64,000 nucleotides of DNA from an uncultured Candidatus Saccharibacteria bacterium (GCA_964561085.1 CAZLNP010000003.1:7351-71350); one strand, 5' to 3'. Positions 28,787 through 40,779 are shown, counted from the stretch's first letter. A program made the numbers and translations. The notes: generated from the letters alone by a model not told the origin.

Positions 28787-29401
28787 TTATATACCGAGGT
28801 TCTTCCGAATCTCGGCCCAATTGTCCTTAGTCGCCTCGTCCATCGCTTTAACAGCACTAGACTTCGCAACCTCTTTATTTGATCTGCGAAGCTTGCCGAC
28901 TAAACCACCCCATTTATCATCGAGCTTTTGCTCATTGTAGCTCATGATTGTTTTGTGGTTGGCCCACTCATCATCATCGAACTCGGCTATCATCTCGATC
29001 TGCAACATGCAGTTTTGAATTCTAGCCTCTTTATGGGAATTTTTTGCTTCCTGATTGTCTATGTCGCCGACATAAGGCTCCCCTAGCATTGCTAGTCTTG
29101 CCAAATTTGCACGATACGGAGTCAGTTGCGAGAGCTTCCTTTCAGCTTCTGAAGCGAGAGCATAATTTTGCTTTGTTACTCTCGCCAATGCAGTAGCGTA
29201 TAGATTCTCGTCGTCAAGCTCTAAATTTCCAGAAACTGCTATGCGAAATTTTTTAACATCCATCGTTGTAATTTCATCATTAAGTTTTTTCGCACCACTC
29301 TTAATGATATCGATTACTGCCGTAGTGGCAGCTCCGCCAGCGACTCCCTTAAGGATGTCTGCTGCGAATTCCGTTAATTTTTTTGTTTTGCTATCTGCCA
29401 T
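28787..29401 (-). CDS. Hypothetical helical protein (island gene)
   Basis: 204 aa. No TM segment and no recognised motif. Confidence 0.45.
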   Translation of the reverse strand: MADSKTKKLTEFAADILKGVAGGAATTAVIDIIKSGAKKLNDEITTMDVKKFRIAVSGNLELDDENLYATALARVTKQNYALASEAERKLSQLTPYRANLARLAMLGEPYVGDIDNQEAKNSHKEARIQNCMLQIEMIAEFDDDEWANHKTIMSYNEQKLDDKWGGLVGKLRRSNKEVAKSSAVKAMDEATKDNWAEIRKNLGI

Positions 29402-29407
29402 AAATAT

Positions 29408-30049
29408 TTACCTCTTCAGCATGAACAGTGCTGTCTGCTTACCACTTGTTGGTTCTGTAAAAAACACTTTGCCGTTTTGATCCATTAAACGAATCAAGAT
29501 ATTAGCCGAGCCGTTTGCATCCGTTTCAATCTGCGAGATTTCATGCGGTTTGCTTTCGACGTCGTCGGCGCCAATGTTAATGGTGTAGTTCTGTCCAGGG
29601 TGTATCAACACACTTTGCTTAGCAGGTTTCCCATGCTCATCAAAGGTTTGAACGAATACAGGAACAAAACCATTAGCCATATGTTTAGAAGGAGTAACTT
29701 TCACACGCTCAATAGCTTCAGCCTTTTTGGCATCCGACTTTTTAAACGGGAATACTACCTCATTGCATACATTGGTTCGAGCAGATTGCTCTACTTTTAC
29801 AGTCAGAGGAAGATCTTTGTCATAGCTGAAATCCTCCACTACGACATCGATCTTATCTAGCTGCCGCGGAAAGTTAACCGTCTTGACGAACTGATTCTGA
29901 ACACTAATCCTTAGACTAATGTTGAAATTTTGCCTGTTCGTGATTGCCACAGAAAAGCGAAGATTCACTTTTCCTTCCGAGCTACCTGATTTTACAACTT
30001 CGGCAGCATTATTAGTTTCGATTGTTATTTGATACTTTGGATCTGCCAT
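29408..30049 (-). CDS. Hypothetical beta-rich protein (island gene)
   Basis: ORF 29408..30181. Likely start is the ATG at 30049 (MADPKYQ), preceded by GAGGT. That ATG overlaps the upstream gene stop (TAAAAATG). Confidence 0.45.
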   Translation of the reverse strand: MADPKYQITIETNNAAEVVKSGSSEGKVNLRFSVAITNRQNFNISLRISVQNQFVKTVNFPRQLDKIDVVVEDFSYDKDLPLTVKVEQSARTNVCNEVVFPFKKSDAKKAEAIERVKVTPSKHMANGFVPVFVQTFDEHGKPAKQSVLIHPGQNYTINIGADDVESKPHEISQIETDANGSANILIRLMDQNGKVFFTEPTSGKQTALFMLKR

Positions 30050-30051
30050 TT

Positions 30052-30555
30052 TTACCTCAGTAGCATCAGAATGAATGCAATCCATAGCCCACCGCATATG
30101 ATTGTAAAGCATAAACGGATAGGTTTGCCTATAAAACCAAGGTCGATAAACCACCAGAACATCATGAAACTTAAAGTCCACAATCCCCGGTAGAACAAAG
30201 ATCGTTCATCGTTTACCAAACCAAAAATGAATAGCAGGACGCAAATAAGCGCTCCTGCTGACCGGATCAAGCGAGTAAAACTTGAATACCATACTTGCAC
30301 ATGAGCTAATGCTCTTATGAAAGATGTTTCTCCTCTGCTAGCTTGACGAAGTCTTCTTGCGTTCTCAATGCGAACCCGCGCTCTTTCAAGCCTAGTAGGT
30401 TGAACATTGTTAGCGTTCCGAACAGGAGCTGCCGCTACCCTTCTATTCCGACCCCTAATTACAGGTGCCGGATTGACGGGCTGTGGCGGAGCTGTGTTCG
30501 GGGTTGAAACGGCATCTAGGTCAATAAGCTGACCGTCATACCAAATTGAAGCCAT
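30052..30555 (-). CDS. Membrane protein with Pro/Arg-rich N-terminal region and 3 TM helices (island gene)
   Basis: ORF 30052..30624. Likely start is the ATG at 30555 (MASIWYDGQ), preceded by AAGGAG. Confidence 0.45.
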   Translation of the reverse strand: MASIWYDGQLIDLDAVSTPNTAPPQPVNPAPVIRGRNRRVAAAPVRNANNVQPTRLERARVRIENARRLRQASRGETSFIRALAHVQVWYSSFTRLIRSAGALICVLLFIFGLVNDERSLFYRGLWTLSFMMFWWFIDLGFIGKPIRLCFTIICGGLWIAFILMLLR

Positions 30556-30694
30556 AACGTTATCTCCTTTTTTTGTTTTTCCGAATATTCTGTTGTAAAA
30601 GAACTGCAAAACTAGTGAAATCACTTGCTTTGCCGTCTTAAAGGAGTTATATCCCCTTTAAAAGGGTAAAACAAATCTATTTAACTTGGACTAC

Positions 30695-30723
30695 ATAATA
30701 GCATATTTTCGGTATTTTGTCAA
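30695..30723 (-). promoter_or_regulatory. Near-consensus sigma70-like promoter, minus strand (TTGACA-17-TATTAT)
   Basis: On the minus strand: ttgacaaaataccgaaaatatgctattat. Drives the operon beginning at 30555. Confidence 0.45.
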
Positions 30724-30742
30724 TAGTAATTCTCACCAAAGA

Positions 30743-30771
30743 TTGACAAAATATCAATTGTGTGATATACT
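30743..30771 (+). promoter_or_regulatory. Near-consensus sigma70-like promoter, plus strand (TTGACA-17-TATACT)
   Basis: ttgacaaaatatcaattgtgtgatatact, divergent and back-to-back with the minus-strand promoter. Leaves a ~200-nt leader before the ATG at 30986. Confidence 0.45.
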
Positions 30772-30985
30772 ATTGCATCGTTCATTGACAACTTGGTAAT
30801 GGTTTAGTTAGCCCAACAAGGCGTTTTCAAATATCCCCTATTTATTTGAGGCTTTGTTAGGCTAACATAGCCTATCTTGATCCATGCTGCTTCCATTCTG
30901 GAAATAGTTTTGATCAGGATTTTCTGCATCTGGGTAACTCCAGCATGTATTCAAAAAAGGATTTTACCATATCATAGGAGAACAA

Positions 30986-32584
30986 ATGAAAAAAATTAAT
31001 TGGAACGCTATTCCTTTAATCGGGCGGTTCTTTTCAGCACCGCAAATCACCGAAACTAATGAACAATCAAATGTTCAAGTTCTTCGGCTTACACCTGCTT
31101 CTGCGGACATCGAAGCTGTAAACATTTCGTTTATACCTGGCAGATTCAGAGAAATCAACGAAACTATTAACGAGGAATTCCTGAGTGAATTCAACGGTAA
31201 TAATTTGGAGACAATCTTTGAAAAAATTGCCGGGAAGGCTAAGGACATCTATAGCGACATCGTTTCTATGTTCAGCGATCTTGCCGATCGTAAACAGACG
31301 GTAGAAACTCTTCAAGGTGAAATTACGTCGGTCGCACTTGTTGCTGCTCACAATAATAGCCTAGAAGATGCGGAGACAGCTCTAAATGAAAGTTGGGCAA
31401 GAGGTTTTAACGAAAAACTCGATGCCGAATCGAAATTAAGCGGTCTCAAAGCCTCGCTGAATGAAGCTGCTGAAGATTTTAGACTCTTCGTTATCGGCAT
31501 CGCCGGTCACGAGAAGGCAGTCATAAAAATTCAGTCTAAGTTAGTCAAAATTGGTAATCGCGTTGCTTTTGCAATCGCCATTATTAGTTTTGAAGCTCTA
31601 CTCGGATTCGAAACCTTTCAAGGTGCCGGAACCGACCAGATGGCGTTAGCTCTTTCCATAGCATTTGGTGGGGCAATCTACATTCTTTCAATCCTCGGTG
31701 CCGACAAGTCTTCTATAGTTTCACATCACACTGATGCGAGAGCGGTATTCAACCGCAACTATCGAGATACCGATTCCAAACGACGCCTCCCCGAAAATCA
31801 AGGTCGGGACAATAACGGCAAAATCGTAAAGTTCTATGAACTAAGCGATAAAACCGTTAAAGCTGCAAAACGCATGACCCTTGCTCTCGGAGCATTAAGT
31901 ATTGCGCTACTTGCTCTTCGCGGTTTTATTATTTACCGTGATGAAACGCTAGGCATTATGGGAATCATCGGAACTGCAGGCTTATTACTGGCGGCGTGGA
32001 TTTTCTACGCATTGGACTACGTCTTCGGACCGAAGTATGAAGCAGAACAGCTTGATGAATACAGTCGGAAATTTGCGACTGTAATGGGACTCGCCCATAA
32101 CATCAAAATGATTCAGAAAGCTACGACGGACAAATACAATAGCCTGATGGACCGCTTGAAACTCGAATATCAAGTTTCAGTTGCCAATGCCAAATCTGTT
32201 CTTAATTATGCTATCGATAACTTTCGCAACAACCGCACTGCCTATGAGAAATTAAGGCGGCAATACGGCGAGGCGATAAAATCTTTTGAAACCGGATTCG
32301 TAAGCTCCTGCGATTTTGCGATCAACAAAATCAAAGAAGCCCATGGCACCAAAATCGGAAAAGTTTCGCGAGCGAGTTTGCTCACGATTCTGACCCATTG
32401 GGTTCCACAGAACGAAACTCTGGGTGATAGAGAATTCGATAAAACAATCGCCAAGCATCCTCTGCCTTCCAAAACAGACAGTGGGCTCACAAAGCCTATA
32501 ACTGTCTGGGCAGATGTTCGCAAAACGATCGAAACGACCGAAACGGAACGGCGCAGACAGATCCTAACCACAAATATCGCGTAA
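30986..32584 (+). CDS. 4-TM membrane protein with long helical/coiled-coil N- and C-terminal domains (hypothetical)
   Basis: 532 aa. RBS AGGAGAA. Two TM hairpins (~aa 190-235 and 295-340) separated by a charged loop. No known motif. Confidence 0.5.
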   Translation: MKKINWNAIPLIGRFFSAPQITETNEQSNVQVLRLTPASADIEAVNISFIPGRFREINETINEEFLSEFNGNNLETIFEKIAGKAKDIYSDIVSMFSDLADRKQTVETLQGEITSVALVAAHNNSLEDAETALNESWARGFNEKLDAESKLSGLKASLNEAAEDFRLFVIGIAGHEKAVIKIQSKLVKIGNRVAFAIAIISFEALLGFETFQGAGTDQMALALSIAFGGAIYILSILGADKSSIVSHHTDARAVFNRNYRDTDSKRRLPENQGRDNNGKIVKFYELSDKTVKAAKRMTLALGALSIALLALRGFIIYRDETLGIMGIIGTAGLLLAAWIFYALDYVFGPKYEAEQLDEYSRKFATVMGLAHNIKMIQKATTDKYNSLMDRLKLEYQVSVANAKSVLNYAIDNFRNNRTAYEKLRRQYGEAIKSFETGFVSSCDFAINKIKEAHGTKIGKVSRASLLTILTHWVPQNETLGDREFDKTIAKHPLPSKTDSGLTKPITVWADVRKTIETTETERRRQILTTNIA

Positions 32585-32598
32585 GCGGGAGAAAAACG

Positions 32599-33666
32599 AT
32601 GAACTTTGAATTAGATGATTTCAACATACCAAACGGCGGGCAGCCGAAAACAAGCCCGCTAGCATTGGTCGGTGTAATTTGTTTCATCCTGCTTGCAATC
32701 GGCGGAGCAGTTAGCATGGTCTACTATCTGGCTGTAAAACCGGCGGCAGACTATCAAGTTAAGGTCAGTTCATTCGGACCTTACACACGGGAATTCGGTC
32801 AACCGCCCGTTTCGATACCTCTCGAAGAGGAAATCTTTAGCCCTCAAAAAGTTAAAGACTATCGGAACGGCGAAGGCTTCTCCTTCGAACTCATCAAAAA
32901 GTTCAAGGGAAAAGTTGACTCGAAAATAACGATCGAACTGAAGCCTTGGGATGAACATCTCGATGGTGGACGCGGAAATCGGGACAAACGACTCGCGGAT
33001 GTCCAGAAAAAACGAGAATCGGCTCGAAAGTTAATAGAGGCTTTCAATTCGGATGAGGCTCGAAAATGGTCGCTCCTCTTGTTTCTTGACGGAACAAGCG
33101 GAACAGGACCTCAGCTCACCGAAGGAGTCAATCAGGGCTTTGCCAGTTTCGGAATCGCCGAATTGTTAAAAAACGGCGACACGGCAACTGTTCAAGCCAT
33201 TATTCTCAATAGTAGCGGAACTACCGAAATCAAGGAAGTTAGCGTTACACGAGACGAGAGTGAATTACAATCACTCAAGGAGTGGTTACTCAAAAAACGA
33301 ACTGATGAAGGAAACAGCGCGCTCGCAACAGGCATATTCAATGTCCTGTCGCAGACGGAAAATCCTTACACTAAATTGGTCATAATCAGCGACGGTCTTG
33401 AAAATAGCGTAGGAACCACAAATTTCTACGCTAAGAAAGATCAGCTTGTTAAGGGCAAAACTGATAAAGCAGAGTGGCAGAAAATCGCCGGGGAAATCCA
33501 GCGACAGAAGGCTGTTCCTGATTTATCAGGGAAGGAAGTGTTGTGGATTCTGTATCCGACTCCAGGCAGCTCAGATGAACTCATCTTCGCTGCTGAGGGT
33601 TTCTGGGCTTGGTTCTTAACAGAACAAGCCGGCACAGTTAAAACTAAGGTCATGAAGCTTAATTAG
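32599..33666 (+). CDS. Membrane-anchored von Willebrand factor A (vWA) domain protein
   Basis: 355 aa. N-terminal signal-anchor (LALVGVICFILLAIGGAVSMVYYL). MIDAS-like LLLFLDGTSGTG, then VIISDGLEN, typical vWA beta-strand motifs. RBS GGGAGAAAAACG. Confidence 0.55.
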   Translation: MNFELDDFNIPNGGQPKTSPLALVGVICFILLAIGGAVSMVYYLAVKPAADYQVKVSSFGPYTREFGQPPVSIPLEEEIFSPQKVKDYRNGEGFSFELIKKFKGKVDSKITIELKPWDEHLDGGRGNRDKRLADVQKKRESARKLIEAFNSDEARKWSLLLFLDGTSGTGPQLTEGVNQGFASFGIAELLKNGDTATVQAIILNSSGTTEIKEVSVTRDESELQSLKEWLLKKRTDEGNSALATGIFNVLSQTENPYTKLVIISDGLENSVGTTNFYAKKDQLVKGKTDKAEWQKIAGEIQRQKAVPDLSGKEVLWILYPTPGSSDELIFAAEGFWAWFLTEQAGTVKTKVMKLN

Positions 33667-33686
33667 AGCTTCTGACTATATCTTTG

Positions 33687-33725
33687 AGGCAGGGCGATGT
33701 TTACATCTCCCTGCCTTACTTTTTA
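33687..33725 (+). terminator. Rho-independent terminator ending the plus-strand island operon
   Basis: Stem gaggcaggg/ccctgcct, ~13-nt loop, T-run. Confidence 0.6.
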
Positions 33726-33778
33726 AAAGATTAAATAATTCGAATTTGGAGGATTTATCAAATTCTTATAAAACTAAA

Positions 33779-33812
33779 CGAGCGTACACAATATGTATAC
33801 GCTCGTTTTTTT
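33779..33812. terminator. Second, near-palindromic hairpin terminator
   Basis: cgagcgtacacaatatgtatacgctcg followed by T7 on the plus strand. It also lies just downstream of the minus-strand gene ending at 33811. Confidence 0.55.
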
Positions 33813-34098
33813 ATTTCAATGCTTCTCGCGCTTCTGCTAAACCAACCTCATCATTAAATTTGGTATCTTTTTTATCTACTACTTCTATAGTCTTTAACAC
33901 CTCTTCCAATAGTGCGCTCTCTCTTTCATTCACCTCGGTAACAGCTTTCATGTAAGCCTGTGCCACGAGCACATGAACTTTACCTCTTTCTTCAGACCCC
34001 GTGTCTTGGCTTAGGTACTGTTTTAACAAAGGCAATGCATCTTCCCAGTGTCCATCCTCCAGAAGACTAAATAATTTAGTTGTGTCAGTATTTTCCAT
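33811..34098 (-). CDS. Small helical (TPR-like) protein
   Basis: 95 aa. Helix-turn-helix repeat-like (ALPLLKQYL...AQAYMKA...). Confidence 0.4.
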   Translation of the reverse strand: MENTDTTKLFSLLEDGHWEDALPLLKQYLSQDTGSEERGKVHVLVAQAYMKAVTEVNERESALLEEVLKTIEVVDKKDTKFNDEVGLAEAREALK

Positions 34099-34102
34099 AA
34101 CT

Positions 34103-35239
34103 TTACATTAAATATTCGTGCTTAAGCAATAGCACTTTTAATAAGAATTTTTTATCTTCAGAAGTACTGCCATCTTCAATTGCCTTTTCAATTTCTGCAC
34201 GAACCATGTCTCGCACATCTTCTGCGGACTGGGTTCCAAGCTCTTTTGATTTTAAATATGGCATTAATTCTTTTTCCAAGCTTCCCAAATCTGAGTCAGC
34301 AATCTGATCAGCAACTTCGCCCATCATCTTGGCTGTTATAACTTTTTCAAACTCTGCCATATACTCATCAAATCCCTCGGTATACTCTTGATCATGAGAG
34401 AAAACCATATTTCTACCATCTTTCTCATCTCTGAATTTAGCCAACGCCTCAAACTCACTTCTAATTTCACTCAATGGAGCATCAAGATTGCCCATTATTT
34501 CCTCAGTTTTCTCCTTTAGAGCTTCCCTGCCTTTAGCCGCCAATTCTTCAGCTACTTCTAACCCAGCTATCAAATCCGATCTAACTTGAGCTAACTCAGC
34601 ATGCATCATTCCAAGATTAGCTTCTGCAAAAGATGCGCTTCCTAACATTTCAGAAGCTTTCTCTAACTCGCGGTCAATACTTTCAACTCGAACTTTAAAT
34701 TCTTCTTTAACTCTTTTGATAGCCTCATCTGGGCGGTCTGTGAAAAATTTCCCTATGAATCCTTTTGCACCTTTTGCTTCTTTCAAAGCATCAACTTTAT
34801 TCTGCAAACCCTCTGCCCCTCCGTGAGACTCATATCTTTTGACTGCTTTACGCTGAGCCTCAAGAATTTTTTCAGATTCTTCATACCTTTCAAGCTGCTC
34901 TTTTATTTCGCCTACTTTGCCTGGGTTTTCTCTGAGCTCTTTTTCAATATATGCTTTAATGGATTCCATTCTCTCTGTAGCATCTACCTCGGCATAACCT
35001 GAAAGCTGTTTTGAATACATTTTATCCAATCCAGTGACGACCCTCTTCTCATTTTCGAAATCAGTGTATCTTTCACTTAAAGTATCAAAGCTAGTTTCAG
35101 GATCCAAATCTTCCAAATCCCCGTGAACTCTGCCCATAAATTCAATGAACTTAGGGTCTGACATTTTTTCTGTATCAAAACTCTCTTTTCCAGCAAAACT
35201 CTTCGAGAGATTTTCCTTTAAATTCTTAAATATTCCCAT
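34103..35239 (-). CDS. Coiled-coil protein, possibly TelA/KlaB-like
   Basis: 378 aa. Entirely alpha-helical with heptad-like, charged content. Size and composition resemble the toxic-anion-resistance TelA family, but no diagnostic motif was verified. Confidence 0.35.
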   Translation of the reverse strand: MGIFKNLKENLSKSFAGKESFDTEKMSDPKFIEFMGRVHGDLEDLDPETSFDTLSERYTDFENEKRVVTGLDKMYSKQLSGYAEVDATERMESIKAYIEKELRENPGKVGEIKEQLERYEESEKILEAQRKAVKRYESHGGAEGLQNKVDALKEAKGAKGFIGKFFTDRPDEAIKRVKEEFKVRVESIDRELEKASEMLGSASFAEANLGMMHAELAQVRSDLIAGLEVAEELAAKGREALKEKTEEIMGNLDAPLSEIRSEFEALAKFRDEKDGRNMVFSHDQEYTEGFDEYMAEFEKVITAKMMGEVADQIADSDLGSLEKELMPYLKSKELGTQSAEDVRDMVRAEIEKAIEDGSTSEDKKFLLKVLLLKHEYLM

Positions 35240-35305
35240 ATATTCCTTAATTTATTATTCTCAATATGATTATAGCAGGCAAAATTAGGCTTGGCTACCA
35301 GCCTT

Positions 35306-37855
35306 TTAAAGCGTCCGCTCCGTCGCAGCCTGTCCTGCCGCCATCATATCTGCTACCTGGCTAGATTCCAGAATCTCTGCTTCTACCTCAGCACGAGGTC
35401 GGCCAAACTTTAACCTAGAAAGTTGTTTAATAGCCCCAGCAGTTTTTGCCTGCTCAGGTGTAGGCTTTGGTAGTGGATAAGTTGCCATGTTAAACGGCTT
35501 ACTCGCTGTCCCATTAATCATCAACTTCACAAAAGCATTGTAGCGATCCACATTCAGCAAATCGAAGTCGTTGAACACAGGCGCGAATTCTTTCGCCATA
35601 GTTTCGGCATCTTCCACACCAATTCTAAATGTCACCATTGAACCAGTGTTTCCGAACACAGCATCACGAAGCTCTTTACTACCAGCTCCTTGTGCACCTG
35701 CTCCTTGAGAAAGCTGTCCTAAAAATTGATGCCCAATAATTAAGTTTAACTTGTATTTACGAGCTTCACTCAAAATACTAGAAAACGCATCGGTAATAAA
35801 GTTTTGGAATTCATCAACATACAAATAAAAGTCTACGCGATCTTCTTCAGGAATATCGGCGCGAGACATAGCAGCCATTTGAATTTTACTAACCAAAATT
35901 AAACCAAGCAACTTTGCATTCATCTCCCCTACTTTTCCTTTAGCAAGGTTAACAAGTAAAATCTTGCGGCCATCCATTACCTCACGGAAGTTAAAAGATG
36001 ATTTCGGCTGACCAACAATGTTGCGCATCATGGAGTTTTCTACGAAGCGACCAACTTTAGAAATCAAATAACCTAACATTTCTGATTTGTGGAAGTCAGA
36101 TGTCTTAGCCATTTCTTTTTCCCAGAAAGCGCGCACTACAGCATCAGTCACTTTACTCACTTTATATTTCTGGAATTCTGTATCGGTAAAGATGCGCGGA
36201 ATGTCGACAATAGTGCCAGGATGTTCTGAGTCTGCCATTAAAGTTAGCATGGCATTACGCATGTTGTGTTCGAACATCGGTCCAAGCATCGCCGGATCTG
36301 TTACGAGTTTATAGAAAATTGAGATCATTTCTTGCACAGCAAAATCTTTTTGACCTTCATTGCTGACTTCAAGCATGTTCAAACCCAAAGGACGTTCTGA
36401 ATCGAACGGTTCAAAAAGAATAACATCTTCTGCTCGCTCCTTTGGAATGTGTGGCAGAATATCCTCAATGAAATCTCCATGAGGGTCGATAATACAAAGC
36501 CCTTCACCGTTCTGAATATCCTGAACGGACATATACTTCATAAGCTCAGTCTTACCAACACCAGTACGTCCTAGAATGTAAGTGTGGCGACGACGATCAT
36601 CTCTTTGCGCACGGATAGGAGTCTCTACGCCTCGGTATATATTACGTCCCAGTAGAATTCCCTCTGAAGGAATATTCACAGGAGCGGGGGCCTTTTTACT
36701 TTGCAACCATTTAATATTTGGGGTTTCCAAAAACGGTGTTGGTAAATGCCAAAGGCTAGTAATTTCTTCTGTATTTAAAATGGACTTCTTCCAGCTACGA
36801 CGATAGATGCGGAACATATAGTCTTTTACTACCGCACTGGTCTTACGAGATTTAACTTTAAACCCATTGAATGGCGGCATGTTGTACTGCAGGAAAGAAG
36901 AAGTAATGCTATTTAAATTCACTGCAGCTGCACCAGGAGTTGTAGATGAAGTGATGATTCTAATATTTGTATTGAATCCCGGACGACTAGCCTTCTCTTC
37001 AAACTTCTTCACCATTTCTTGCTGCATCGGAGTAAGCTGAATAGCGGAATGCATCCCTGTCAAATCTTGATGATGCCCTTGAGTATTTGTTGGTTCGTTT
37101 TTTCCAAAAGCGCTATCCCGTAAAATTCCGAATGATTCAGAGGCAAATTTTGCACCTGCTCCTTTTACAACGCTGTTAGGGTTTTTCCCTTGCTGAATCT
37201 CCAACGCTAAATGACGTGGTTTATGCTGCCAGTGGTGTCCTGCTGGGGACAAGATAAACTGAATCGCTGCGCCTTCGTTATCGCCCAGCTTAGACATAGC
37301 GTTAGTTAGAGCATTCAACGGATCTGTTTCCATGGTCTTATATGTACGAATTGGAAACATGTATGGACGGTTTAACTCCAATTCAGCAGCTGCAATTTGC
37401 CCACCCTTTTGGAATGGATTATATCCCCTAACAATCTCGATGAACGCATGAGGATACTGCGCTTGTAGTTGTTTTTCTACTAGCTCTTGAAGACTTCGGG
37501 GGCAGTTAATATAAAAAGATATCTTTTTTTCTGTGCATGCAATCTCTAAGCTGATGTATTGCTTAGGTTGAAAAAACCAATTATGTGCGCTGATTTCAGA
37601 AAGCGCAGTGAACAACTGCTCAGCAACGCCGATCATATTCTTCTTGGCTTCTGGATTATTAAGTTGATTATTCTGCTTATCTTCAGAATTATCTTTTGGC
37701 ATTTGAATCTCTAAAAACACCCAGTCCTTAGTGCGCGGCAAAATAACTTTACTGTAGTACCAGTGCCTGTGAATATAATAAGCTAGGAATGCCAAAAAAG
37801 CCAATACAAGTATGGCTAAAAATAAACTGGCTATAATAATCGTATTCAGCTCCAT
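35306..37855 (-). CDS. Membrane-anchored FtsK/HerA/VirD4-superfamily P-loop ATPase (T4CP/DUF87-like)
   Basis: 849 aa. N-terminal TM helix. Walker A GRTGVGKT, followed by IIDPHGDF (HerA/DUF87-like). Walker B LYVDEFQNF, then RKYKLNLIIGHQFLGQL (TraD/TrwB-like C-terminal pattern). Confidence 0.6.
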   Translation of the reverse strand: MELNTIIIASLFLAILVLAFLAFLAYYIHRHWYYSKVILPRTKDWVFLEIQMPKDNSEDKQNNQLNNPEAKKNMIGVAEQLFTALSEISAHNWFFQPKQYISLEIACTEKKISFYINCPRSLQELVEKQLQAQYPHAFIEIVRGYNPFQKGGQIAAAELELNRPYMFPIRTYKTMETDPLNALTNAMSKLGDNEGAAIQFILSPAGHHWQHKPRHLALEIQQGKNPNSVVKGAGAKFASESFGILRDSAFGKNEPTNTQGHHQDLTGMHSAIQLTPMQQEMVKKFEEKASRPGFNTNIRIITSSTTPGAAAVNLNSITSSFLQYNMPPFNGFKVKSRKTSAVVKDYMFRIYRRSWKKSILNTEEITSLWHLPTPFLETPNIKWLQSKKAPAPVNIPSEGILLGRNIYRGVETPIRAQRDDRRRHTYILGRTGVGKTELMKYMSVQDIQNGEGLCIIDPHGDFIEDILPHIPKERAEDVILFEPFDSERPLGLNMLEVSNEGQKDFAVQEMISIFYKLVTDPAMLGPMFEHNMRNAMLTLMADSEHPGTIVDIPRIFTDTEFQKYKVSKVTDAVVRAFWEKEMAKTSDFHKSEMLGYLISKVGRFVENSMMRNIVGQPKSSFNFREVMDGRKILLVNLAKGKVGEMNAKLLGLILVSKIQMAAMSRADIPEEDRVDFYLYVDEFQNFITDAFSSILSEARKYKLNLIIGHQFLGQLSQGAGAQGAGSKELRDAVFGNTGSMVTFRIGVEDAETMAKEFAPVFNDFDLLNVDRYNAFVKLMINGTASKPFNMATYPLPKPTPEQAKTAGAIKQLSRLKFGRPRAEVEAEILESSQVADMMAAGQAATERTL

Positions 37856-37879
37856 ATTTATTTTTGTTTTATAAAAACT

Positions 37880-38236
37880 TTACTCTTTTAAATCAGCTGA
37901 TAGTGCCAAAACCTGTTCCATTTCATCGCTTGCATTTTCCAGAGGAACACCATGATTAATGAGACTCTCAAGGACTTCTGCTTCACGGCTTTTTTGTGCA
38001 GAACTGATGACTTCATGAGCTGATCCAGAATCAACTTCAATTGGTGATTCAGTTATTGATTCAGAATTCAAAGCTTCGACCTGCTTTACATCTTCACTAT
38101 CACCTAACTCTGTAGGAAGGCCGAAATCCGGAGTACTAAGTGTTTCCGTAGCCTCGTTGGATTCGACACGCTCTTGATTTTCAATTTTAAAACCATCATT
38201 CTCTACACCGCCGATTTTTCTTTCATCTAACTCCAT
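37880..38236 (-). CDS. Small acidic hypothetical protein
   Basis: 118 aa, highly acidic (E/D/S-rich). Immediately downstream of secY on the minus strand, after a terminator-like hairpin. Confidence 0.35.
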   Translation of the reverse strand: MELDERKIGGVENDGFKIENQERVESNEATETLSTPDFGLPTELGDSEDVKQVEALNSESITESPIEVDSGSAHEVISSAQKSREAEVLESLINHGVPLENASDEMEQVLALSADLKE

Positions 38237-38289
38237 TTTTGTTTCGCTTTCTTATATTTTCAGTTAGTTTTACTAATTTATTATAACAC

Positions 38290-38420
38290 TTTTTCGCCCA
38301 AAATAAAAAACCATAAAGATTTACTAAGCAGGCAGTTGGCTAGCGCGCGAGGTCTGCTACTTTAGGCAGACCGAGACAAAGCGCTGCCTGCGGGTAGATC
38401 TTTATGGTTTTTAAAAAAAT
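38290..38420. terminator. Long compound hairpin / bidirectional terminator after secY
   Basis: Outer stem aaccataaagat/atctttatggtt flanked by A and T runs on both sides. Nested stems gcaggcag/ctgcctgc and ggtctgc/gcagacc. Confidence 0.4.
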
Positions 38421-38433
38421 CGAGTGAAAAAGG

Positions 38434-39714
38434 TTAGTAGCCCTTATAGTCATGCATAGTCAACTGAGCTTCAACCTGTTTGATGGTTTCAATAACCACA
38501 GCTACTACAATCAACATTCCAGTACCACCAAGTGTTAGGGATTGTGTACCAGTCCATTGTTGAACGATGAACGGCAACACCGCTACTAAACCTAAGAATA
38601 AAGATCCTGGCAATGTGATGCGATTCAAGACTTTATACAGGTAAGCTGCTGTCTGTTGTCCTGGGCGAAGACCAGGAACAAATCCACCACTACGTTGCAT
38701 ATTTTCTGCCACATCATCAGGGTTAACAATAATGTTTGTGTAGAAATAAGTGAATGCTACCACCAACACGAAGTAAACTACTCCATACCAAAGCCCTTGA
38801 GTATTAGTGAAGTTAATTACTGCTTGTGCCCATTCAGCTAGCATCGCACTTTTTGCATTCAAGAAGAACTGAGCAATAATCGCTGGGAAAAGCATCAAAG
38901 ATAGAGCAAAGATAATCGGAATAACACCAGCCTGGTTCAAACGCATCGGCAAGTGAGAATCTACTCCCCCAACCTGTCTATCGCCGCGCTGTCGTTTTGC
39001 ATAGGAAACTGGAATATTACGCTGAGCCTCAGAAACTAGAACGATTCCGGCAATAACCAAAATTATGGCTGCTGCGAAAGCGATAATAGTCGGAAGTTGG
39101 CTTGGGTCGTAAAGTTGAATTAATGAGCTTAAGCTAGATGGCAATTGAGCAACAATACCAGCGAAAATGATTAAGGAAAGTCCATTACCAATACCATATT
39201 CAGAAATAATTTCACCAATCCACATGATGAACATTGTACCAGCTGTTACACAAAGAAGGGTTAAGAACCACTGGAAAGGGCTAAATGCACCCAAAATCTC
39301 AGCGCCACCCTGGCTTTGCAGCAAACGAATAGTACCAAAACCAGACACAACCGCTAGAGGAATGGTTAAGAAACGAGTATATTGATTAATCTTAGCGCGG
39401 CCTGCTTCACCACTTTCCTTCTGAAGTTCTTTCAAAGAAGGGACAATCATAGTCAAAAGCTGCATGATGATAGAAGCTGTAATGTAAGGACCTACACCAA
39501 GCATAGCAATAGAGAAGTTAGCTAAACCACCACCAGAGAAGATGTCTAACAAATTCAAGAATTGATTGCCTTGGAAGAATGCTTGCAAACCTGAAACATT
39601 AATCCCTGGAATAGGAATATTAACCAAAACACGAGTAGCCAAAAGAAGCGCGATGACCATGAAGATCTTCCAGCGCAAATCTTTAGTTTTCCAAATAAGT
39701 AGTAAAGTATTCAT
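38434..39714 (-). CDS. secY: Preprotein translocase subunit SecY
   Basis: 426 aa, 10 TM helices. GIMPYI-like motifs (GVGPYITASIIMQLL). Confidence 0.9.
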   Translation of the reverse strand: MNTLLLIWKTKDLRWKIFMVIALLLATRVLVNIPIPGINVSGLQAFFQGNQFLNLLDIFSGGGLANFSIAMLGVGPYITASIIMQLLTMIVPSLKELQKESGEAGRAKINQYTRFLTIPLAVVSGFGTIRLLQSQGGAEILGAFSPFQWFLTLLCVTAGTMFIMWIGEIISEYGIGNGLSLIIFAGIVAQLPSSLSSLIQLYDPSQLPTIIAFAAAIILVIAGIVLVSEAQRNIPVSYAKRQRGDRQVGGVDSHLPMRLNQAGVIPIIFALSLMLFPAIIAQFFLNAKSAMLAEWAQAVINFTNTQGLWYGVVYFVLVVAFTYFYTNIIVNPDDVAENMQRSGGFVPGLRPGQQTAAYLYKVLNRITLPGSLFLGLVAVLPFIVQQWTGTQSLTLGGTGMLIVVAVVIETIKQVEAQLTMHDYKGY

Positions 39715-39807
39715 AATAAGAAGTGATCTTTATATTTCTATTGATATTATACAGGAAAAGCAATAAACGCGCTCTATGTATTAATAGCTGCGCGTTTTAT
39801 TGCTGAG

Positions 39808-40245
39808 TTATTTAGAAAGAGTTCCACCAGCTTTTTCAATGGTTTCCTTCGCAGTACCAGATACAGAAACCTTGAAAGTCAATTTACGGGCAAGCTTTCC
39901 TTGTAAAATCTTAACGCGCTTAGCACCAGTTGGTACAAGACCATGAGCTCTCAATGTAGCTATAGTCACAATATCGCCATCTTTGAAGACAGATAGAGCA
40001 TCTAACTTGATAGCAGTAGCTTTTTCAGCCAAGCTCTTAAATCCACGAAGTTTTGGCAATTGACGAACCAACGGCTGACGACCACCTTCAAATCGAGCTG
40101 GCATCTTTGAGTGACCAGTACGCTTGGTCTGTCCCTTATTACCACGAGTGGAATAAGTTCCGTGTCCACTACCAATACCACGACCGACTACTTTGCGGCG
40201 CTTTGTGGATTTTGGATGTTTACGTAATTGATGAAGTTTGATCAT
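39808..40245 (-). CDS. rplO: Ribosomal protein L15
   Basis: GRGIGSGHG...GNKGQ motif. Adjacent to rpsE with no L30 gene between them. Confidence 0.9.
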   Translation of the reverse strand: MIKLHQLRKHPKSTKRRKVVGRGIGSGHGTYSTRGNKGQTKRTGHSKMPARFEGGRQPLVRQLPKLRGFKSLAEKATAIKLDALSVFKDGDIVTIATLRAHGLVPTGAKRVKILQGKLARKLTFKVSVSGTAKETIEKAGGTLSK

Positions 40246-40275
40246 AAAATTAAGCTTATTTAAAGTGAGCGGAAA

Positions 40276-40779
40276 TTATTTACGGCTAGCTAGAATAGTT
40301 TCTTTGCTGCGCATCAACTTGAAGGCTGCAAAAGTAGCACGAACGTTATTAACTTTGTTGTTAGAACCAAGCATTTTAGAGATAACATTCTTCACACCAG
40401 CCATGTCTAGTACTGAACGAACAGCACCACCAGCAATCACACCAGTACCTGGACGAGCTGGCAACATGATGATTTGGCTAGACTTATACTTTAGCTTGAT
40501 TTCATGTGGGATAGTATCGTTAACCAATGGCAAAGTAATCATGTTCTTTTTTGCTTCGTTTACTGCCTTGTTCACAGCTTCAGCAACGTCATTACCTTTT
40601 CTCAAGCCAATACCAACACGACCCTTGTGATCACCGATCACAATAAGCGCGCGGAAACGCATACGTTTTCCACCACCGGTCACACGAGTTACACGCTTAA
40701 CTTCAACCACTTTTTGGTCAAATTCACGTACAGGTCGTTCGCCACGATTATTAGGTTTTCTTGGTCTCTTGTCCATCAT
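40276..40779 (-). CDS. rpsE: Ribosomal protein S5
   Basis: VKRVTRVTGGGKRMRFRALIVIGDHKGRVGIG. Confidence 0.9.
   Translation of the reverse strand: MMDKRPRKPNNRGERPVREFDQKVVEVKRVTRVTGGGKRMRFRALIVIGDHKGRVGIGLRKGNDVAEAVNKAVNEAKKNMITLPLVNDTIPHEIKLKYKSSQIIMLPARPGTGVIAGGAVRSVLDMAGVKNVISKMLGSNNKVNNVRATFAAFKLMRSKETILASRK

What the first reader, a model, noticed from the sequence alone, without database searches (positions are those of the whole stretch)
33811..38433. Coiled-coil (TelA-like?) protein plus membrane-anchored HerA/T4CP-like ATPase directly downstream of secY, where adk-map-infA-rpmJ usually sit
In most bacteria the spc operon continues after secY with adk, map, infA, rpmJ and rpsM. Here secY is followed by a compound terminator, a 118-aa acidic protein, an 849-aa protein, a 378-aa all-helical coiled-coil protein and a 95-aa TPR-like protein. 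The 849-aa protein has an N-terminal TM anchor, a ~400-aa unknown domain and a C-terminal P-loop ATPase (Walker A GRTGVGKT, IIDPHGD, Walker B YVDEFQNF, RKYKLN..GHQ). This resembles HerA/DUF87 and type IV coupling proteins. The block could be the motor of a DNA- or protein-translocating apparatus, possibly linked to the adjacent island, or a remnant of a conjugative or competence element.
Basis: partly seen in the sequence, partly recalled or inferred. Interest (0 to 1): 0.5.

Follow-up and report, generated by a model that had tools for sequence, protein, structure and literature searches.

The report
Core coupling-protein-like ATPase with hypervariable neighbours
Next to secY, this candidate-phyla-radiation bacterium carries a membrane-anchored motor ATPase related to conjugation "coupling proteins"; it is as conserved as SecY itself and is not a relic of a mobile element, while the small genes around it are among the fastest-changing in the region.

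Summary

**The 849-aa protein.** It has one N-terminal TM helix, a roughly 360-aa DUF8128 domain and a C-terminal ATPase.
- By sequence, the ATPase is closest to VirD4/TrwB type IV coupling proteins (T4CPs).
- By predicted fold, the DUF8128 domain is closest to the N-terminal domain of VirB4.

**It is not a conjugative remnant.**
- Homologues at 49-100% identity lie in conserved synteny in 84 Patescibacteria loci.
- Their identity tracks SecY (r = 0.90).
- A second strain differs at 145 codons, all synonymous.

**The neighbours.** The 378-aa protein shows no TelA signal. It and the 95-aa protein form a pair kept directly 3' of the ATPase only in the nearest sub-clade.
- The pair is 19-24% identical in a strain whose ATPase is 100% identical.
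- Its relationships disagree with those of the ATPase, so cassette alleles are being exchanged.
- The 118-aa acidic protein also evolves fast.

**Function.** My best reading is a vertically inherited translocase or coupling ATPase. It most likely serves the chromosomal Patescibacteria type IV secretion system (T4SS) encoded elsewhere. The flanking fast-evolving genes would be accessory or cargo candidates. Function is inferred, not shown.

**Prior knowledge.** Orphan T4CP homologues in Patescibacteria are already published, and DUF8128 is already in Pfam.

The parts
38290..38433 (-). Long hairpin plus U-run directly 3' of secY; probable intrinsic terminator that separates secY from the block.
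   Evidence: RNA fold of -57.9 kcal/mol, z = -8.69, 0 of 200 shuffles as stable; sequence read.
38280..38288 (-). Extended -10 box TGtTATAAT ahead of the 118-aa ORF; candidate promoter for the 118-aa and ATPase genes.
   Evidence: Read directly from the sequence. It was not listed by the two-hexamer scan, so it rests on sequence reading only.
37880..38236 (-). p118: acidic protein (pI 4.1) that ends 24 nt before the ATPase start. It is fast-evolving and its position is conserved.
   Evidence: ORF and pI. Against strain L086, 31 differing codons are synonymous and 33 non-synonymous, with 22% nucleotide difference and the same length. An ORF lies directly upstream of the ATPase in 76 of 84 loci, but it is only 13-21% identical in the loci aligned. 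No Pfam, NCBIfam, PHROG or PADLOC hit.
35306..37855 (-). 849-aa DUF8128 plus T4CP-like ATPase; the central, ultra-conserved gene.
   Evidence: Family and PDB matches; structure models and fold searches; conservation and synteny.
37772..37840 (-). Single N-terminal transmembrane helix (residues 6-28), followed by H/R/K-rich sequence, so the rest of the protein is predicted to be cytoplasmic.
   Evidence: Sequence; AF2 models one long helix over residues 5-44. Topology is inferred from the positive-inside rule.
36656..37738 (-). DUF8128 domain (residues ~40-400): tandem alpha/beta sheets whose fold is closest to the N-terminal domain of VirB4/TrwK.
35456..36628 (-). T4CP-like ATPase domain (residues ~410-800). 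It carries Walker A (36548-36571), Walker B (35798-35821), the RKYKLN..GHQ motif (35726-35761) and a helical insertion at residues ~500-620 that is almost invariant.
   Evidence: Pfam TrwB_AAD_bind over residues 420-725. TrwB 1e9r at E = 7e-7 over residues 416-724. Foldseek to TrwB with target-normalised TM 0.5-0.6, plus DotL and Cagbeta. Invariant columns in the 47-sequence alignment.
35269..35297 (-). Promoter-like site (TAGCCA, 17-nt spacer, TATAAT with TG) between the ATPase stop and the 378-aa start.
   Evidence: Best-scoring site of the scan, 10 of 12 matches. This is a consensus match only.
34103..35239 (-). p378: acidic, K/E-rich protein of a small, hyperdivergent family kept directly 3' of the ATPase in the nearest sub-clade. 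It is not TelA.
   Evidence: Only 4 homologues among 5.8 billion proteins. A collinear 9-member alignment shares an MGxF N-terminus and an LLKVLLxKY C-terminus. It is 19-21% identical to the L086 copy although the ATPase is 100% identical. No TelA hit.
33811..34098 (-). p95: small acidic protein with one TPR/PPR-like hairpin. Its start lies 4 nt after the p378 stop, and it always accompanies p378.
   Evidence: Pfam TPR_19 at 17.6 bits, below the 25-bit cut-off, and SctY at E = 0.005. A profile against PDB hits designer PPR repeats and the 99-aa TPR-like chain 2kc7. It is 24% identical to the L086 copy. Partners of 91-99 aa in L086, L006, L007, L014, L089 and L091, and 116 aa in L029.
33776..33808 (-). 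Terminator-like hairpin (15-bp stem) plus T-run that ends the p378-p95 pair.
   Evidence: sequence read.
24962..35305 (.). Variable insert between the ATPase and its usual downstream neighbours (p218, GtrA, dnaX). It holds p378/p95, two plus-strand membrane proteins (30986-33666), a recurring p257-p204-p507 module (27346-30181) and a GT2 glycosyltransferase.
   Evidence: In many related loci p218 starts 100-1500 nt after the ATPase. Nucleotide similarity to strain L086 stops exactly at the ATPase stop codon. The modules recur with very low identity.
24305..24961 (-). p218: a conserved protein of unknown function and the most widely conserved downstream neighbour of the ATPase.
   Evidence: Found downstream of the ATPase in 57 of 84 loci at 44-75% identity. 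More than 8000 homologues and no Pfam family.

Best explanation
The 849-aa gene encodes a membrane-anchored P-loop translocase of the VirD4/TrwB coupling-protein lineage, within the FtsK-HerA superfamily. Its architecture is unusual: one TM helix, then a cytoplasmic DUF8128 domain whose predicted fold resembles the N-terminal domain of VirB4, then the ATPase with an all-helical insertion.

It is a vertically inherited core gene of a Doudnabacteria-like Patescibacteria lineage. It is not part of a mobile element.

Inferred mechanism: like other members of this superfamily, it assembles as a ring at the membrane. It uses ATP to recognise a macromolecular substrate (protein or nucleic acid) and feed it to a membrane channel. 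That channel is most likely the chromosomal Patescibacteria T4SS encoded elsewhere, whose gene cluster lacks its own coupling protein.

The three small neighbours evolve quickly. They are p118 upstream, apparently in one transcription unit with the ATPase, and the p378/p95 pair downstream with its own promoter-like site and terminator. They are best read as strain-specific accessory factors or cargo. The p378/p95 alleles are exchanged between strains by recombination that breaks at the ATPase stop codon.

Shown: family assignment, architecture, conservation, synteny, the selection pattern and cassette discordance. Inferred: oligomeric state, substrate, link to the T4SS and the roles of p118, p378 and p95.
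For: **Family**
- Pfam TrwB_AAD_bind and DUF87 score above their cut-offs and T4SS-DNA_transf is at its cut-off.
- NCBIfam TraD/VirD4-type models are the best hits, though far below their cut-offs.
- TrwB and DotL are the best PDB sequence hits. TrwB, DotL and Cagbeta are fold matches with target-normalised TM 0.46-0.6.
- The catalytic motifs are invariant in 47 homologues.

**Architecture**
- DUF8128 sits N-terminal to a T4CP-type or P-loop (DUF87) ATPase match in all 8 diverse members tested. Seven of them hit TrwB_AAD_bind.
- With the DUF8128 model alone, the top 12 Foldseek hits are all VirB4/TrwK. With the full-length model, the top hits are also VirB4, aligned over about 950 columns.

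**Core gene**
- There are 84 loci at 49-100% identity. L15-secY lies upstream in 38 of them. p218, GtrA and dnaX lie downstream in 57, 44 and 50.
- Identity correlates with SecY (r = 0.90; means 73.4% against 74.3%). It exceeds L15 in 27 of 34 loci and DnaX in 50 of 50.
- Against strain L086 there are 148 nucleotide differences in 145 codons, with none non-synonymous.
- No relaxase or VirB genes appear in the Pfam-annotated neighbourhoods. No relatives were found in IMG/VR.

**Link to the T4SS, from the literature**
- 5,713 VirD4-like T4CP homologues were found in 2,918 Patescibacteria genomes, and only 148 lie near virB4 (PMC12102498).
- The essential Saccharibacteria T4SS cluster lacks a recognisable coupling protein (PMC10633639).

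**Neighbours**
- The gene order is kept in at least 8 assemblies.
- p378 relationships disagree with ATPase relationships. Window against L086 is 100% for the ATPase but 19% for p378. Window against L089 is 85% but 41%. L086 against L007 is 83% but 34%.
- Nucleotide similarity ends at the ATPase stop codon.
Against: - No T4SS channel genes (VirB4, VirB6, pilins) lie in the 64-kb window or in the flanks examined. The proposed partner is therefore unseen here.
- The one experimentally probed Patescibacteria T4CP homologue, in Southlakia epibionticum, was not essential while the T4SS was (PMC12102498). I could not test whether that homologue carries DUF8128.
- The canonical T4CP N-terminus with two TM helices is absent.
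- The VirB4-like N-terminal domain could instead mean a VirB4-type role.
- Adjacency to fast-evolving genes may simply reflect an insertion hot spot.
Confidence: 0.5

Rival explanations
1. It acts on its own as a housekeeping nucleic-acid translocase, for example in DNA or RNA uptake or in chromosome handling at the membrane, and is independent of any T4SS. It would work like FtsK or the archaeal Ced importer ATPases.
For: - Its conservation equals that of SecY.
- It keeps synteny with dnaX and with p218. Two source annotations call p218 an AbrB/PrlF-like DNA-binding protein.
- The helical insertion that binds DNA or substrates in TrwB is nearly invariant here.
- There are weak NCBIfam hits to CedD and CedB.
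- Patescibacteria depend on imported nucleic acids and are naturally competent (PMC10633639; bioRxiv 10.64898/2026.06.21.733656).
Against: - The CedB/CedD and HerA hits cover only the P-loop region and lie far below their cut-offs.
- No FtsK_SpoIIIE hit was found.
- Synteny among core genes in these small genomes need not reflect function.
- No channel partner such as ComEC lies nearby.
Confidence: 0.2
2. It is functionally a VirB4-type assembly or energising ATPase of a T4SS-like or pilus machine, rather than a substrate-receptor coupling protein.
For: - The two-domain architecture and the fold of the N-terminal domain match VirB4/TrwK best in Foldseek.
- On the Natrinema plasmid pNVE500, a homologue sits in a cluster with a pilin gene and a second, 1102-aa T4CP-type ATPase. 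Two such ATPases could divide the VirB4 and VirD4 roles between them.
- In Bacillus phage G, the homologue gp156 lies next to gp155, which is annotated as VirB-like.
Against: - No sequence match to VirB4 families was found. There was no CagE_TrbE_VirB or AAA_10 hit, and VirB4_plasma scored only 13 bits.
- A sequence profile of the family finds TrwB, DotL and HerA in the PDB but not TrwK.
- Patescibacteria already carry a separate, monophyletic VirB4 (PMC12102498).
Confidence: 0.15
3. The block is a decayed remnant of a conjugative, integrative or phage element inserted after secY.
For: - T4CP-type ATPases are typical of mobile elements.
- The whole-protein family matches phrog_5156 at E = 4e-91. 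Distant homologues occur in large Bacillus phages and on plasmids.
- A 10-kb variable island with uneven GC content lies next door.
Against: - The ATPase sits at the same chromosomal place in dozens of species-level genomes.
- It evolves in step with SecY.
- It shows 145 synonymous and no non-synonymous codon changes between strains.
- All catalytic motifs are intact.
- No integrase, relaxase or att-like repeats were annotated nearby.
- The IMG/VR scan found nothing.
- The phage and plasmid homologues are only 19-31% identical.
Confidence: 0.03
4. The 378-aa and 95-aa proteins have no functional tie to the ATPase. They would be the first genes of a general insertion or variation hot spot, for example a surface, toxin-immunity or defence cassette, that happens to abut it.
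For: - They have their own promoter-like site and terminator.
- The region between the ATPase and p218 holds unrelated variable genes in other clades. Examples are DUF5663 with a 1500-1742-aa kinase-domain protein, and a PP2C-VWA-kinase set.
- A second hyperdivergent module, p257-p204-p507, lies further along.
Against: - The pair is always the first thing after the ATPase stop codon, on the same strand. In the four loci measured (window, L086, L089, L091) the gap is 31-66 nt. This holds across at least 8 assemblies, even though the rest of the island differs.
- PADLOC gives no defence hit above noise.
Confidence: 0.3

Closest known systems
Type IV coupling proteins (VirD4 / TrwB / TraD / DotL; Pfam PF10412, PF02534, PF12696)
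   Same: The RecA-like P-loop domain carries a helical insertion and all catalytic motifs. These proteins give the best sequence and fold matches for residues ~410-800, and they are also membrane-anchored at the N-terminus.
   Different: This protein has one TM helix instead of two, and an extra ~360-aa DUF8128 domain between the membrane anchor and the ATPase. It is a chromosomal core gene with no relaxase or mating-pair genes nearby. It evolves as slowly as SecY, whereas T4CPs of mobile elements are generally regarded as fast-evolving, which is my own background knowledge rather than something tested here.
VirB4 (TrwK of plasmid R388; PDB 7o42, 8rtd)
   Same: The overall two-domain plan is shared: an N-terminal alpha/beta domain of about 400 aa followed by a C-terminal ATPase. 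VirB4 is the best Foldseek match both for the whole model and for the N-terminal domain alone.
   Different: There is no sequence-level match to VirB4 families. No VirB3, VirB6 or VirB8 genes lie nearby. TM-scores are low (0.25-0.38) and the model quality is moderate.
Orphan VirD4-like T4CP homologues of Patescibacteria (Quinonero-Coronel et al. 2025, PMC12102498)
   Same: The same phylum, the same kind of HMM-level assignment and the same location away from virB4. The authors themselves raise exaptation to another function.
   Different: That paper does not mention DUF8128, the VirB4-like N-terminal fold, the secY / p218 / dnaX synteny, the extreme purifying selection or the hypervariable flanking cassette. 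I could not confirm that their counted homologues are this family.
phrog_5156 / Bacillus phage G gp156 and SP-10 BS_SP10_203 (uncharacterised)
   Same: These share the full-length architecture. The PHROG match covers residues 65-835 at E = 4e-91, and phage G gp156 aligns over residues 102-795. A small ORF lies directly upstream in SP-10.
   Different: They are only 19-25% identical, are carried by phages and have no known function.
Variable effector modules downstream of the T7SS ATPase EssC in Firmicutes (recalled from my own knowledge as an analogy; not tested here)
   Same: A conserved secretion-type ATPase gene is followed directly by strain-variable gene cassettes, and similarity breaks at the 3' end of the ATPase gene.
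   Different: It belongs to a different ATPase family (FtsK/SpoIIIE type). Here the break falls exactly at the stop codon and not inside the gene. No secretion of the downstream proteins has been shown.

Membership tests
Type IV coupling protein (VirD4/TrwB/TraD) | P-loop nucleotide-binding domain that matches the T4CP family models above their curated cut-offs. | tested here: met
   PF10412 scores 35.3 bits against a 20.5 cut-off, and PF02534 scores 20.1 against 20.1. TrwB 1e9r gives E = 7e-7 over residues 416-724. The NCBIfam equivalog models (TraD and others) are hit only far below their cut-offs, so the protein is not an equivalog of any named T4CP.
Type IV coupling protein (VirD4/TrwB/TraD) | All-alpha domain inserted in the nucleotide-binding domain. 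| tested here: met
   AF2 models helices over residues 500-614 between strands of the ATPase core. Foldseek to TrwB gives target-normalised TM 0.5-0.6 over about 430 columns. The model has moderate confidence.
Type IV coupling protein (VirD4/TrwB/TraD) | N-terminal membrane domain of two TM helices directly preceding the ATPase. | tested here: not met
   Only one hydrophobic helix (residues 6-28) is present, followed by the 360-aa DUF8128 domain.
Type IV coupling protein (VirD4/TrwB/TraD) | Genetic association with a relaxase and/or mating-pair formation genes (VirB4 and others). | tested here: not met
   None was found among the scanned ORFs of the 64-kb window. None appears in the Pfam-annotated flanks of the related loci returned by six look-ups. 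The rest of the genome could not be searched.
Type IV coupling protein (VirD4/TrwB/TraD) | Hexameric ring with a central channel; substrate-dependent ATPase activity. | not testable with these tools
   Only monomer models were possible.
VirB4 | N-terminal domain with the VirB4 fold, preceding the ATPase domain. | tested here: inconclusive
VirB4 | Sequence match to VirB4 family models (CagE_TrbE_VirB, AAA_10, NCBIfam VirB4). | tested here: not met
   No Pfam hit. VirB4_plasma scores 13.2 bits against a 590-bit cut-off. The family profile does not find TrwK in the PDB.
HerA | HAS-barrel N-terminal domain, a full-length HerA match and a NurA partner. | tested here: not met
   The DUF87 hit covers only residues 411-483. 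helicase_HerA scores 13.3 bits against a 970-bit cut-off. No NurA-like neighbour was found.
FtsK/SpoIIIE | Match to the FtsK_SpoIIIE motor domain, plus a gamma domain or multi-TM N-terminus. | tested here: not met
   No FtsK_SpoIIIE hit at E of 0.1 or better. The only related hit is a PHROG 'FtsK/SpoIIIE-like' match at E = 0.009 over residues 271-368, outside the ATPase domain.
DUF8128 (PF26449) | Match to the Pfam model. | tested here: met
   The annotation is precomputed on the 100%-identical protein P0001 and on 119 of the 120 listed homologues. The model is absent from the local Pfam copy, so I could not rescore it.
TelA (PF05816), for the 378-aa protein | Match to the TelA family model or to a TelA-like structure. 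| tested here: not met
   No TelA hit at E of 0.5 or better for the protein or any of 8 relatives. The family profile against the PDB gives only coiled-coil noise.
TPR-like repeat proteins, for the 95-aa protein | TPR-type helical hairpin repeats scoring above a family cut-off. | tested here: inconclusive
   TPR_19 scores 17.6 bits, below the 25-bit cut-off. The family profile hits designer PPR repeats through residues 6-36 only, and the 99-aa TPR-like chain 2kc7 at E = 0.011.

The most novel reading that the evidence does not exclude
The DUF8128 ATPase is the missing substrate receptor of the Patescibacteria T4SS, which is essential in the one species tested. The hyperdivergent p378/p95 pair directly after its stop codon would be a strain-specific effector with its small TPR-like chaperone or adaptor. 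Strains would swap this pair by recombination anchored in the invariant ATPase gene. The conserved LLKVLLxKY C-terminus of p378 would act as the recognition signal. That would make this locus a cassette system for host-interaction effectors in epibiotic bacteria, analogous to the EssC-linked effector modules of type VII secretion.
Probability: 0.12. Interest if true: 0.75.

Novelty: new variant of a known kind. Interest (0 to 1): 0.5.

Why it matters
The T4SS is essential in the one Patescibacteria species tested. Its gene cluster has no recognised coupling protein and no known substrates.

This locus supplies a concrete candidate for the coupling role. The candidate is a coupling-protein-like ATPase that is as conserved as SecY, lies at a fixed chromosomal place and has a VirB4-like N-terminal domain.

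The locus also supplies a short list of candidate partners or cargo, namely the fast-evolving genes welded to its two ends.

Separately, a protein with a VirD4-like ATPase sequence and a VirB4-like architecture bears on how the two T4SS ATPase families diverged.

If none of this holds, the locus is still a clear example of an insertion and allele-exchange hot spot next to an invariant core gene.

Tried and rejected
- **TelA for p378.** No hit by Pfam on 9 family members or by a PDB profile.
- **HerA-NurA, FtsK/SpoIIIE and terminase readings of the ATPase.** Only P-loop-level or sub-threshold hits.
- **Anti-phage defence.** PADLOC gives only superfamily-level hits for the ATPase (mad8 at 52 bits, HerA, DndH) and nothing above noise for the neighbours.
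- **Phage or mobile origin.** The PHROG and phage or plasmid homologues are real but only 19-31% identical. The IMG/VR scan found none, although its patterns suit close relatives only.
- **Homology between the two kinds of upstream small protein.** The near-clade kind is acidic and 110-145 aa. The distant-clade kind is 160-180 aa with a conserved WLKLIPGVNKFFLEQEAKIKTDKI C-terminus. An HMM of the second finds nothing in the first, with a best E of 0.04.
- **p204 as a member of the recurring 'small' module protein family.** Not detectable; it is equivalent by position only.
- **Tools and data that were unavailable.** The afdb50 fold library was not on the machine. The supplement of PMC12102498 does not list the complete relative genome GCA_016699995.1. 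There are no tRNA genes in the window to mark an integration site.
- **Caps.** As a result p378, p95, p118 and p218 have no structure models.


Full report
**1. Observation**

The minus strand carries five ORFs at the stated coordinates:

| Gene | Coordinates | Length |
|---|---|---|
| secY | 38434-39714 | 426 aa |
| p118 | 37880-38236 | 118 aa |
| ATPase | 35306-37855 | 849 aa |
| p378 | 34103-35239 | 378 aa |
| p95 | 33811-34098 | 95 aa |

- The 144 nt after secY fold into one long hairpin of -57.9 kcal/mol (z = -8.7) followed by a U-run.
- An extended -10 box (TGtTATAAT, 38288-38280) then lies before p118.
- p118 ends 24 nt before the ATPase start.
- A promoter-like site (35297-35269) and a 15-bp-stem terminator (33808-33776) bracket p378-p95.
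- The signals therefore suggest three units: secY and upstream genes; p118 with the ATPase; and p378 with p95.
- No adk, map or infA was found among the ORFs scanned, which covered nearly all ORFs of 110 aa or more.
- The rest of the window is an ordinary small-genome mix. It holds the S10-spc ribosomal operon, tuf and fusA, glycolysis and pentose-phosphate genes, mreB, recJ and dnaX.

**2. What the 849-aa protein is**

*Sequence evidence for residues ~410-800*
- Pfam gives TrwB_AAD_bind at 35.3 bits (cut-off 20.5, residues 420-725). DUF87 scores 31.6 bits (cut-off 23.2) and T4SS-DNA_transf is at its cut-off.
- NCBIfam's best hits are TraD/VirD4-type coupling proteins, all far below their equivalog cut-offs.
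- The best solved-structure relatives by sequence are TrwB (E = 7e-7, residues 416-724) and DotL, followed by HerA.

*N-terminal domain*
- Precomputed Pfam on the identical database protein names the N-terminal ~360 aa DUF8128 (PF26449).
- This domain has 2074 cluster representatives at E of 1e-3 or better among 1.84 billion.
- In all 8 diverse members tested it is followed by a T4CP-type or P-loop (DUF87) ATPase match. Seven of the 8 hit TrwB_AAD_bind.

*Structure models*
- The full-length AF2 model has pLDDT 69.4. It shows a long N-terminal helix, an alpha/beta domain, and a RecA-like domain with a helical insertion at residues 500-614.
- Foldseek against the PDB ranks VirB4/TrwK first for the full model. 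E is 1e-13 over about 950 aligned columns, but TM is only 0.25. TrwB, DotL and Cagbeta match the C-terminal half with target-normalised TM 0.46-0.6.
- A separate model of residues 40-400 has pLDDT 68.7 and pTM 0.66.
- With that model, the top 12 Foldseek hits are all TrwK/VirB4, with E from 4e-5 to 3e-3.

*Reading*
- The protein has a coupling-protein-like ATPase by sequence and a VirB4-like two-domain plan by fold, anchored by one TM helix.
- The residues after the helix are basic, so the bulk of the protein should be cytoplasmic. That topology is an inference from the positive-inside rule.

**3. It is a core gene, not a remnant**

- The large protein search found more than 4700 relatives. 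The top 120 are all 70-100% identical and about 850 aa long.
- I collected 84 loci. Eighty are GTDB species representatives and four came from contig look-ups. ATPase identity across them is 49-100%.
- The record titles are mainly Doudnabacteria, Falkowbacteria, Magasanikbacteria, Kerfeldbacteria, Buchananbacteria, Parcubacteria and 'Patescibacteria group'. Many are labelled uncultured Saccharibacteria.
- tblastn with the window's proteins gave these neighbour counts. They are lower bounds because many contigs are short.

| Neighbour | Position relative to the ATPase | Loci (of 84) |
|---|---|---|
| L15-secY | upstream | 38 |
| p218 (window 24305-24961) | downstream | 57 |
| GtrA | downstream | 44 |
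| dnaX | downstream | 50 |

- ATPase identity tracks SecY identity (r = 0.90; means 73.4% against 74.3%). It exceeds L15 in 27 of 34 loci and DnaX in 50 of 50.
- One strain (L086, GCA_964609785.1) encodes a 100%-identical protein despite 148 nucleotide differences. All 145 differing codons are synonymous.
- In the same comparison secY has 43 synonymous and no non-synonymous codon changes.
- The 47-sequence alignment is 80% identical per column. The helical insertion, which is variable in plasmid coupling proteins, is almost invariant here.
- No integrase, relaxase or VirB gene appears in any annotated flank. An IMG/VR scan found no relatives.
- The same architecture does occur at 19-31% identity elsewhere. 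It is found in large Bacillus phages (phrog_5156, E = 4e-91; phage G gp156; SP-10) and in Firmicutes, actinobacterial and haloarchaeal replicons.
- In phage G the homologue lies next to a gene annotated as 'VirB-like'. On Natrinema pNVE500 it lies in a cluster with a pilin and a second T4CP-type ATPase.

**4. The neighbours**

*p378 and p95*
- The four genes are not one conserved unit across the family.
- p378 has only four homologues among 5.8 billion proteins.
- By tblastn, p378 is found in one related locus, p95 in two and p118 in one.
- In many loci p218 begins 100-1500 nt after the ATPase. In the window the two are 10.3 kb apart, so 24962-35305 is a variable insert.
- In other clades the same slot holds other genes. 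Examples are a DUF5663 protein with a 1500-1742-aa kinase-domain protein, and a PP2C-VWA-zinc-ribbon-kinase set.
- Within the nearest sub-clade, however, the order p118, ATPase, p378-like, p95-like is kept. It holds in the window, L086, L089/L090, L091, L006, L007 and L014, and partly in L029.
- The p378 relatives align collinearly. They share an MGxF N-terminus and an LLKVLLxKY C-terminus but are only 14-44% identical.
- Pairwise identities show that the cassette and the ATPase have different histories:

| Comparison | ATPase identity | p378 identity |
|---|---|---|
| Window vs L086 | 100% | 19% |
| Window vs L089 | 85% | 41% |
| L086 vs L007 | 83% | 34% |

- Nucleotide similarity between the window and L086 stops exactly at the ATPase stop codon.
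- The cassette is therefore exchanged among strains, or kept as old alleles, independently of the ATPase.
- No TelA signal was found for any of the 9 family members, and the PDB profile search gave only coiled-coil noise.
- p95 has one TPR/PPR-like hairpin at its N-terminus and a sub-threshold SctY-chaperone hit.

*p118*
- p118 keeps its length between strains but differs at 22% of nucleotides, with 33 non-synonymous and 31 synonymous codon changes.
- An ORF sits directly upstream of the ATPase in 76 of 84 loci.
- In the near clade it is acidic (mostly pI 4-5) and mostly 110-145 aa. In the ~50%-identity clade it is 160-180 aa with a strongly conserved C-terminal helix.
- I found no detectable homology between the two kinds.

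*Rest of the insert*
- A second recurring but hyperdivergent module lies deeper in the insert: p257, p204 and the membrane protein p507 (window 30181-27346).

**5. Mechanism**

*Shown*
- An intact ATPase of the T4CP lineage that is membrane-anchored and under extreme constraint.
- A fixed chromosomal position.
- Fast-evolving genes abutting both ends.

*Inferred from what is established for the FtsK-HerA / T4CP / VirB4 superfamily*
- It forms a ring at the membrane and uses ATP to engage a macromolecular substrate and pass it to a channel.

*Which channel*
- The literature reports 5,713 VirD4-like homologues in 2,918 Patescibacteria genomes, and only 148 lie near virB4. The authors leave open that these homologues were exapted to another function (PMC12102498).
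- The essential Saccharibacteria T4SS cluster lacks a recognisable coupling protein (PMC10633639).
- The most economical reading is that this ATPase serves that T4SS from a distance.
- I give the whole statement a confidence of 0.5. The family assignment and the core-gene status are far more secure than the T4SS link.

*Main rivals*
- An autonomous nucleic-acid translocase (0.2).
- A VirB4-type energising role (0.15).
- Whether p378/p95 are tied to the ATPase at all is a separate question. I put 0.3 on their being merely the first genes of a hot spot.

**6. Comparison and novelty**

- The protein works like a coupling protein or VirB4.
- It fails two defining features of canonical T4CPs: the two-TM N-terminus and linkage to relaxase or mating-pair genes.
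- It also fails the sequence criteria for VirB4.
- It is a member of Pfam DUF8128, a family of unknown function.
- Orphan T4CP homologues in this phylum are already published, so the gene itself is not new.
- A full-text search for 'DUF8128' returned no paper. The two Patescibacteria T4SS papers I searched for coupling-protein and synteny terms (PMC12102498, PMC10633639) describe none of the following:
  - the VirB4-like N-terminal fold;
  - conservation and synteny at the level of SecY;
  - the allele-shuffled cassette anchored at the stop codon.
- I rate it a new variant of a known kind, with interest 0.5.

**7. Limits**

- Both structure models have moderate confidence, and their alignments were shallow in diversity (70% identity or more).
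- The rest of the genome could not be searched for T4SS genes.
- No structure models were possible for p118, p378, p95 or p218.
- Promoter and terminator calls are consensus matches, apart from the secY hairpin, which has strong fold statistics.
- Taxon labels come from record titles. Several titles name unrelated phyla (Gammaproteobacteria, Acidobacteriaceae, Binatia). I take these to be binning or labelling errors, which is an inference.

Noticed in passing
window 24305-24961 (- strand): The 218-aa protein p218 has more than 8000 database homologues, all the scored candidates, and no Pfam family. It is the most consistently conserved downstream neighbour of the ATPase (57 of 84 loci, 44-75% identity). 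Two JGI entries call it an AbrB/PrlF-like antitoxin or DNA-binding protein, and its sequence looks like two AbrB-type half-barrels after an N-terminal helix.
   Followed up: partly
window 35306-40419 compared with L086 3-5695: Divergence between the two strains rises towards the variable region. L15 differs at 0.9% of nucleotides, secY at 3.4% and the ATPase at 5.8% (all differing codons in secY and the ATPase are synonymous), and p118 at 22%. Similarity is then lost completely at the ATPase stop codon. This is the pattern expected next to a locus under balancing or diversifying selection, or next to a recombination breakpoint.
   Followed up: partly
L086 2134-2709 (between secY and p118): The sister strain has an extra 576 bp, holding a 123-aa ORF, between the secY terminator region and p118. 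This stretch is absent from the window. In L002 the same gap holds NUDIX, HAD and Zincin_1 genes plus a DDE transposase. The upstream side of the ATPase is therefore also an insertion site.
   Followed up: no
window 27346-30181 (- strand): A three-gene module (p257, beta-rich; p204; p507, a multi-TM membrane protein) recurs in L086, L006, L013 and L063 at very low identity. An HMM of the relatives matches p507 at E = 1e-24 and p257 at E = 8e-11. p204 is equivalent by position only. This is a second hyperdivergent module in the same insert.
   Followed up: partly
L064-L084, ORF directly upstream of the ATPase (e.g. L070 5469-5960): In the ~50%-identity clade (records labelled Falkowbacteria, Magasanikbacteria, Buchananbacteria and Parcubacteria) the upstream partner is a 160-180-aa protein. 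It has a disordered acidic or proline-rich N-terminus and a strongly conserved C-terminal helical domain ending in WLKLIPGVNKFFLEQEAKIKTDKI. It has no detectable homology to p118.
   Followed up: partly
L003 10583-16119; L010 8595-13453; L011 4740-9552: In another sub-clade the ATPase is followed by a ~101-110-aa acidic protein of one family (DUF5663 where Pfam annotation was available, L003/L004) and a 1492-1742-aa protein (protein-kinase domain annotated in L003/L004). The layout is again a small acidic protein with a large partner directly 3' of the ATPase.
   Followed up: no
window 25001-27000: GC content drops to 0.33-0.34, against about 0.40 elsewhere, over the 737-aa GT2 glycosyltransferase gene. 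The 1-kb windows at 28-29 kb and 32-33 kb rise to 0.46. The uneven composition fits a mosaic, horizontally exchanged insert.
   Followed up: no
L085 (Bacillus phage G 90859-93336) and L088 (Natrinema versiforme pNVE500 456032-459124): Distant full-length homologues of the ATPase sit next to a 'VirB-like' gene in phage G. In a haloarchaeal plasmid they sit inside a cluster with a pilin gene and a second, 1102-aa T4CP-type ATPase.
   Followed up: partly
window 30986-33666 (+ strand): Two convergent plus-strand ORFs have no family hits. p532 has several hydrophobic helices and K/E-rich regions that look like coiled coil. p355 has an N-terminal TM helix and DGTSGT...ISDGLEN motifs reminiscent of a vWA MIDAS site. 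The sister strain has a PP2C-VWA-zinc-ribbon-kinase set at the equivalent place.
   Followed up: no
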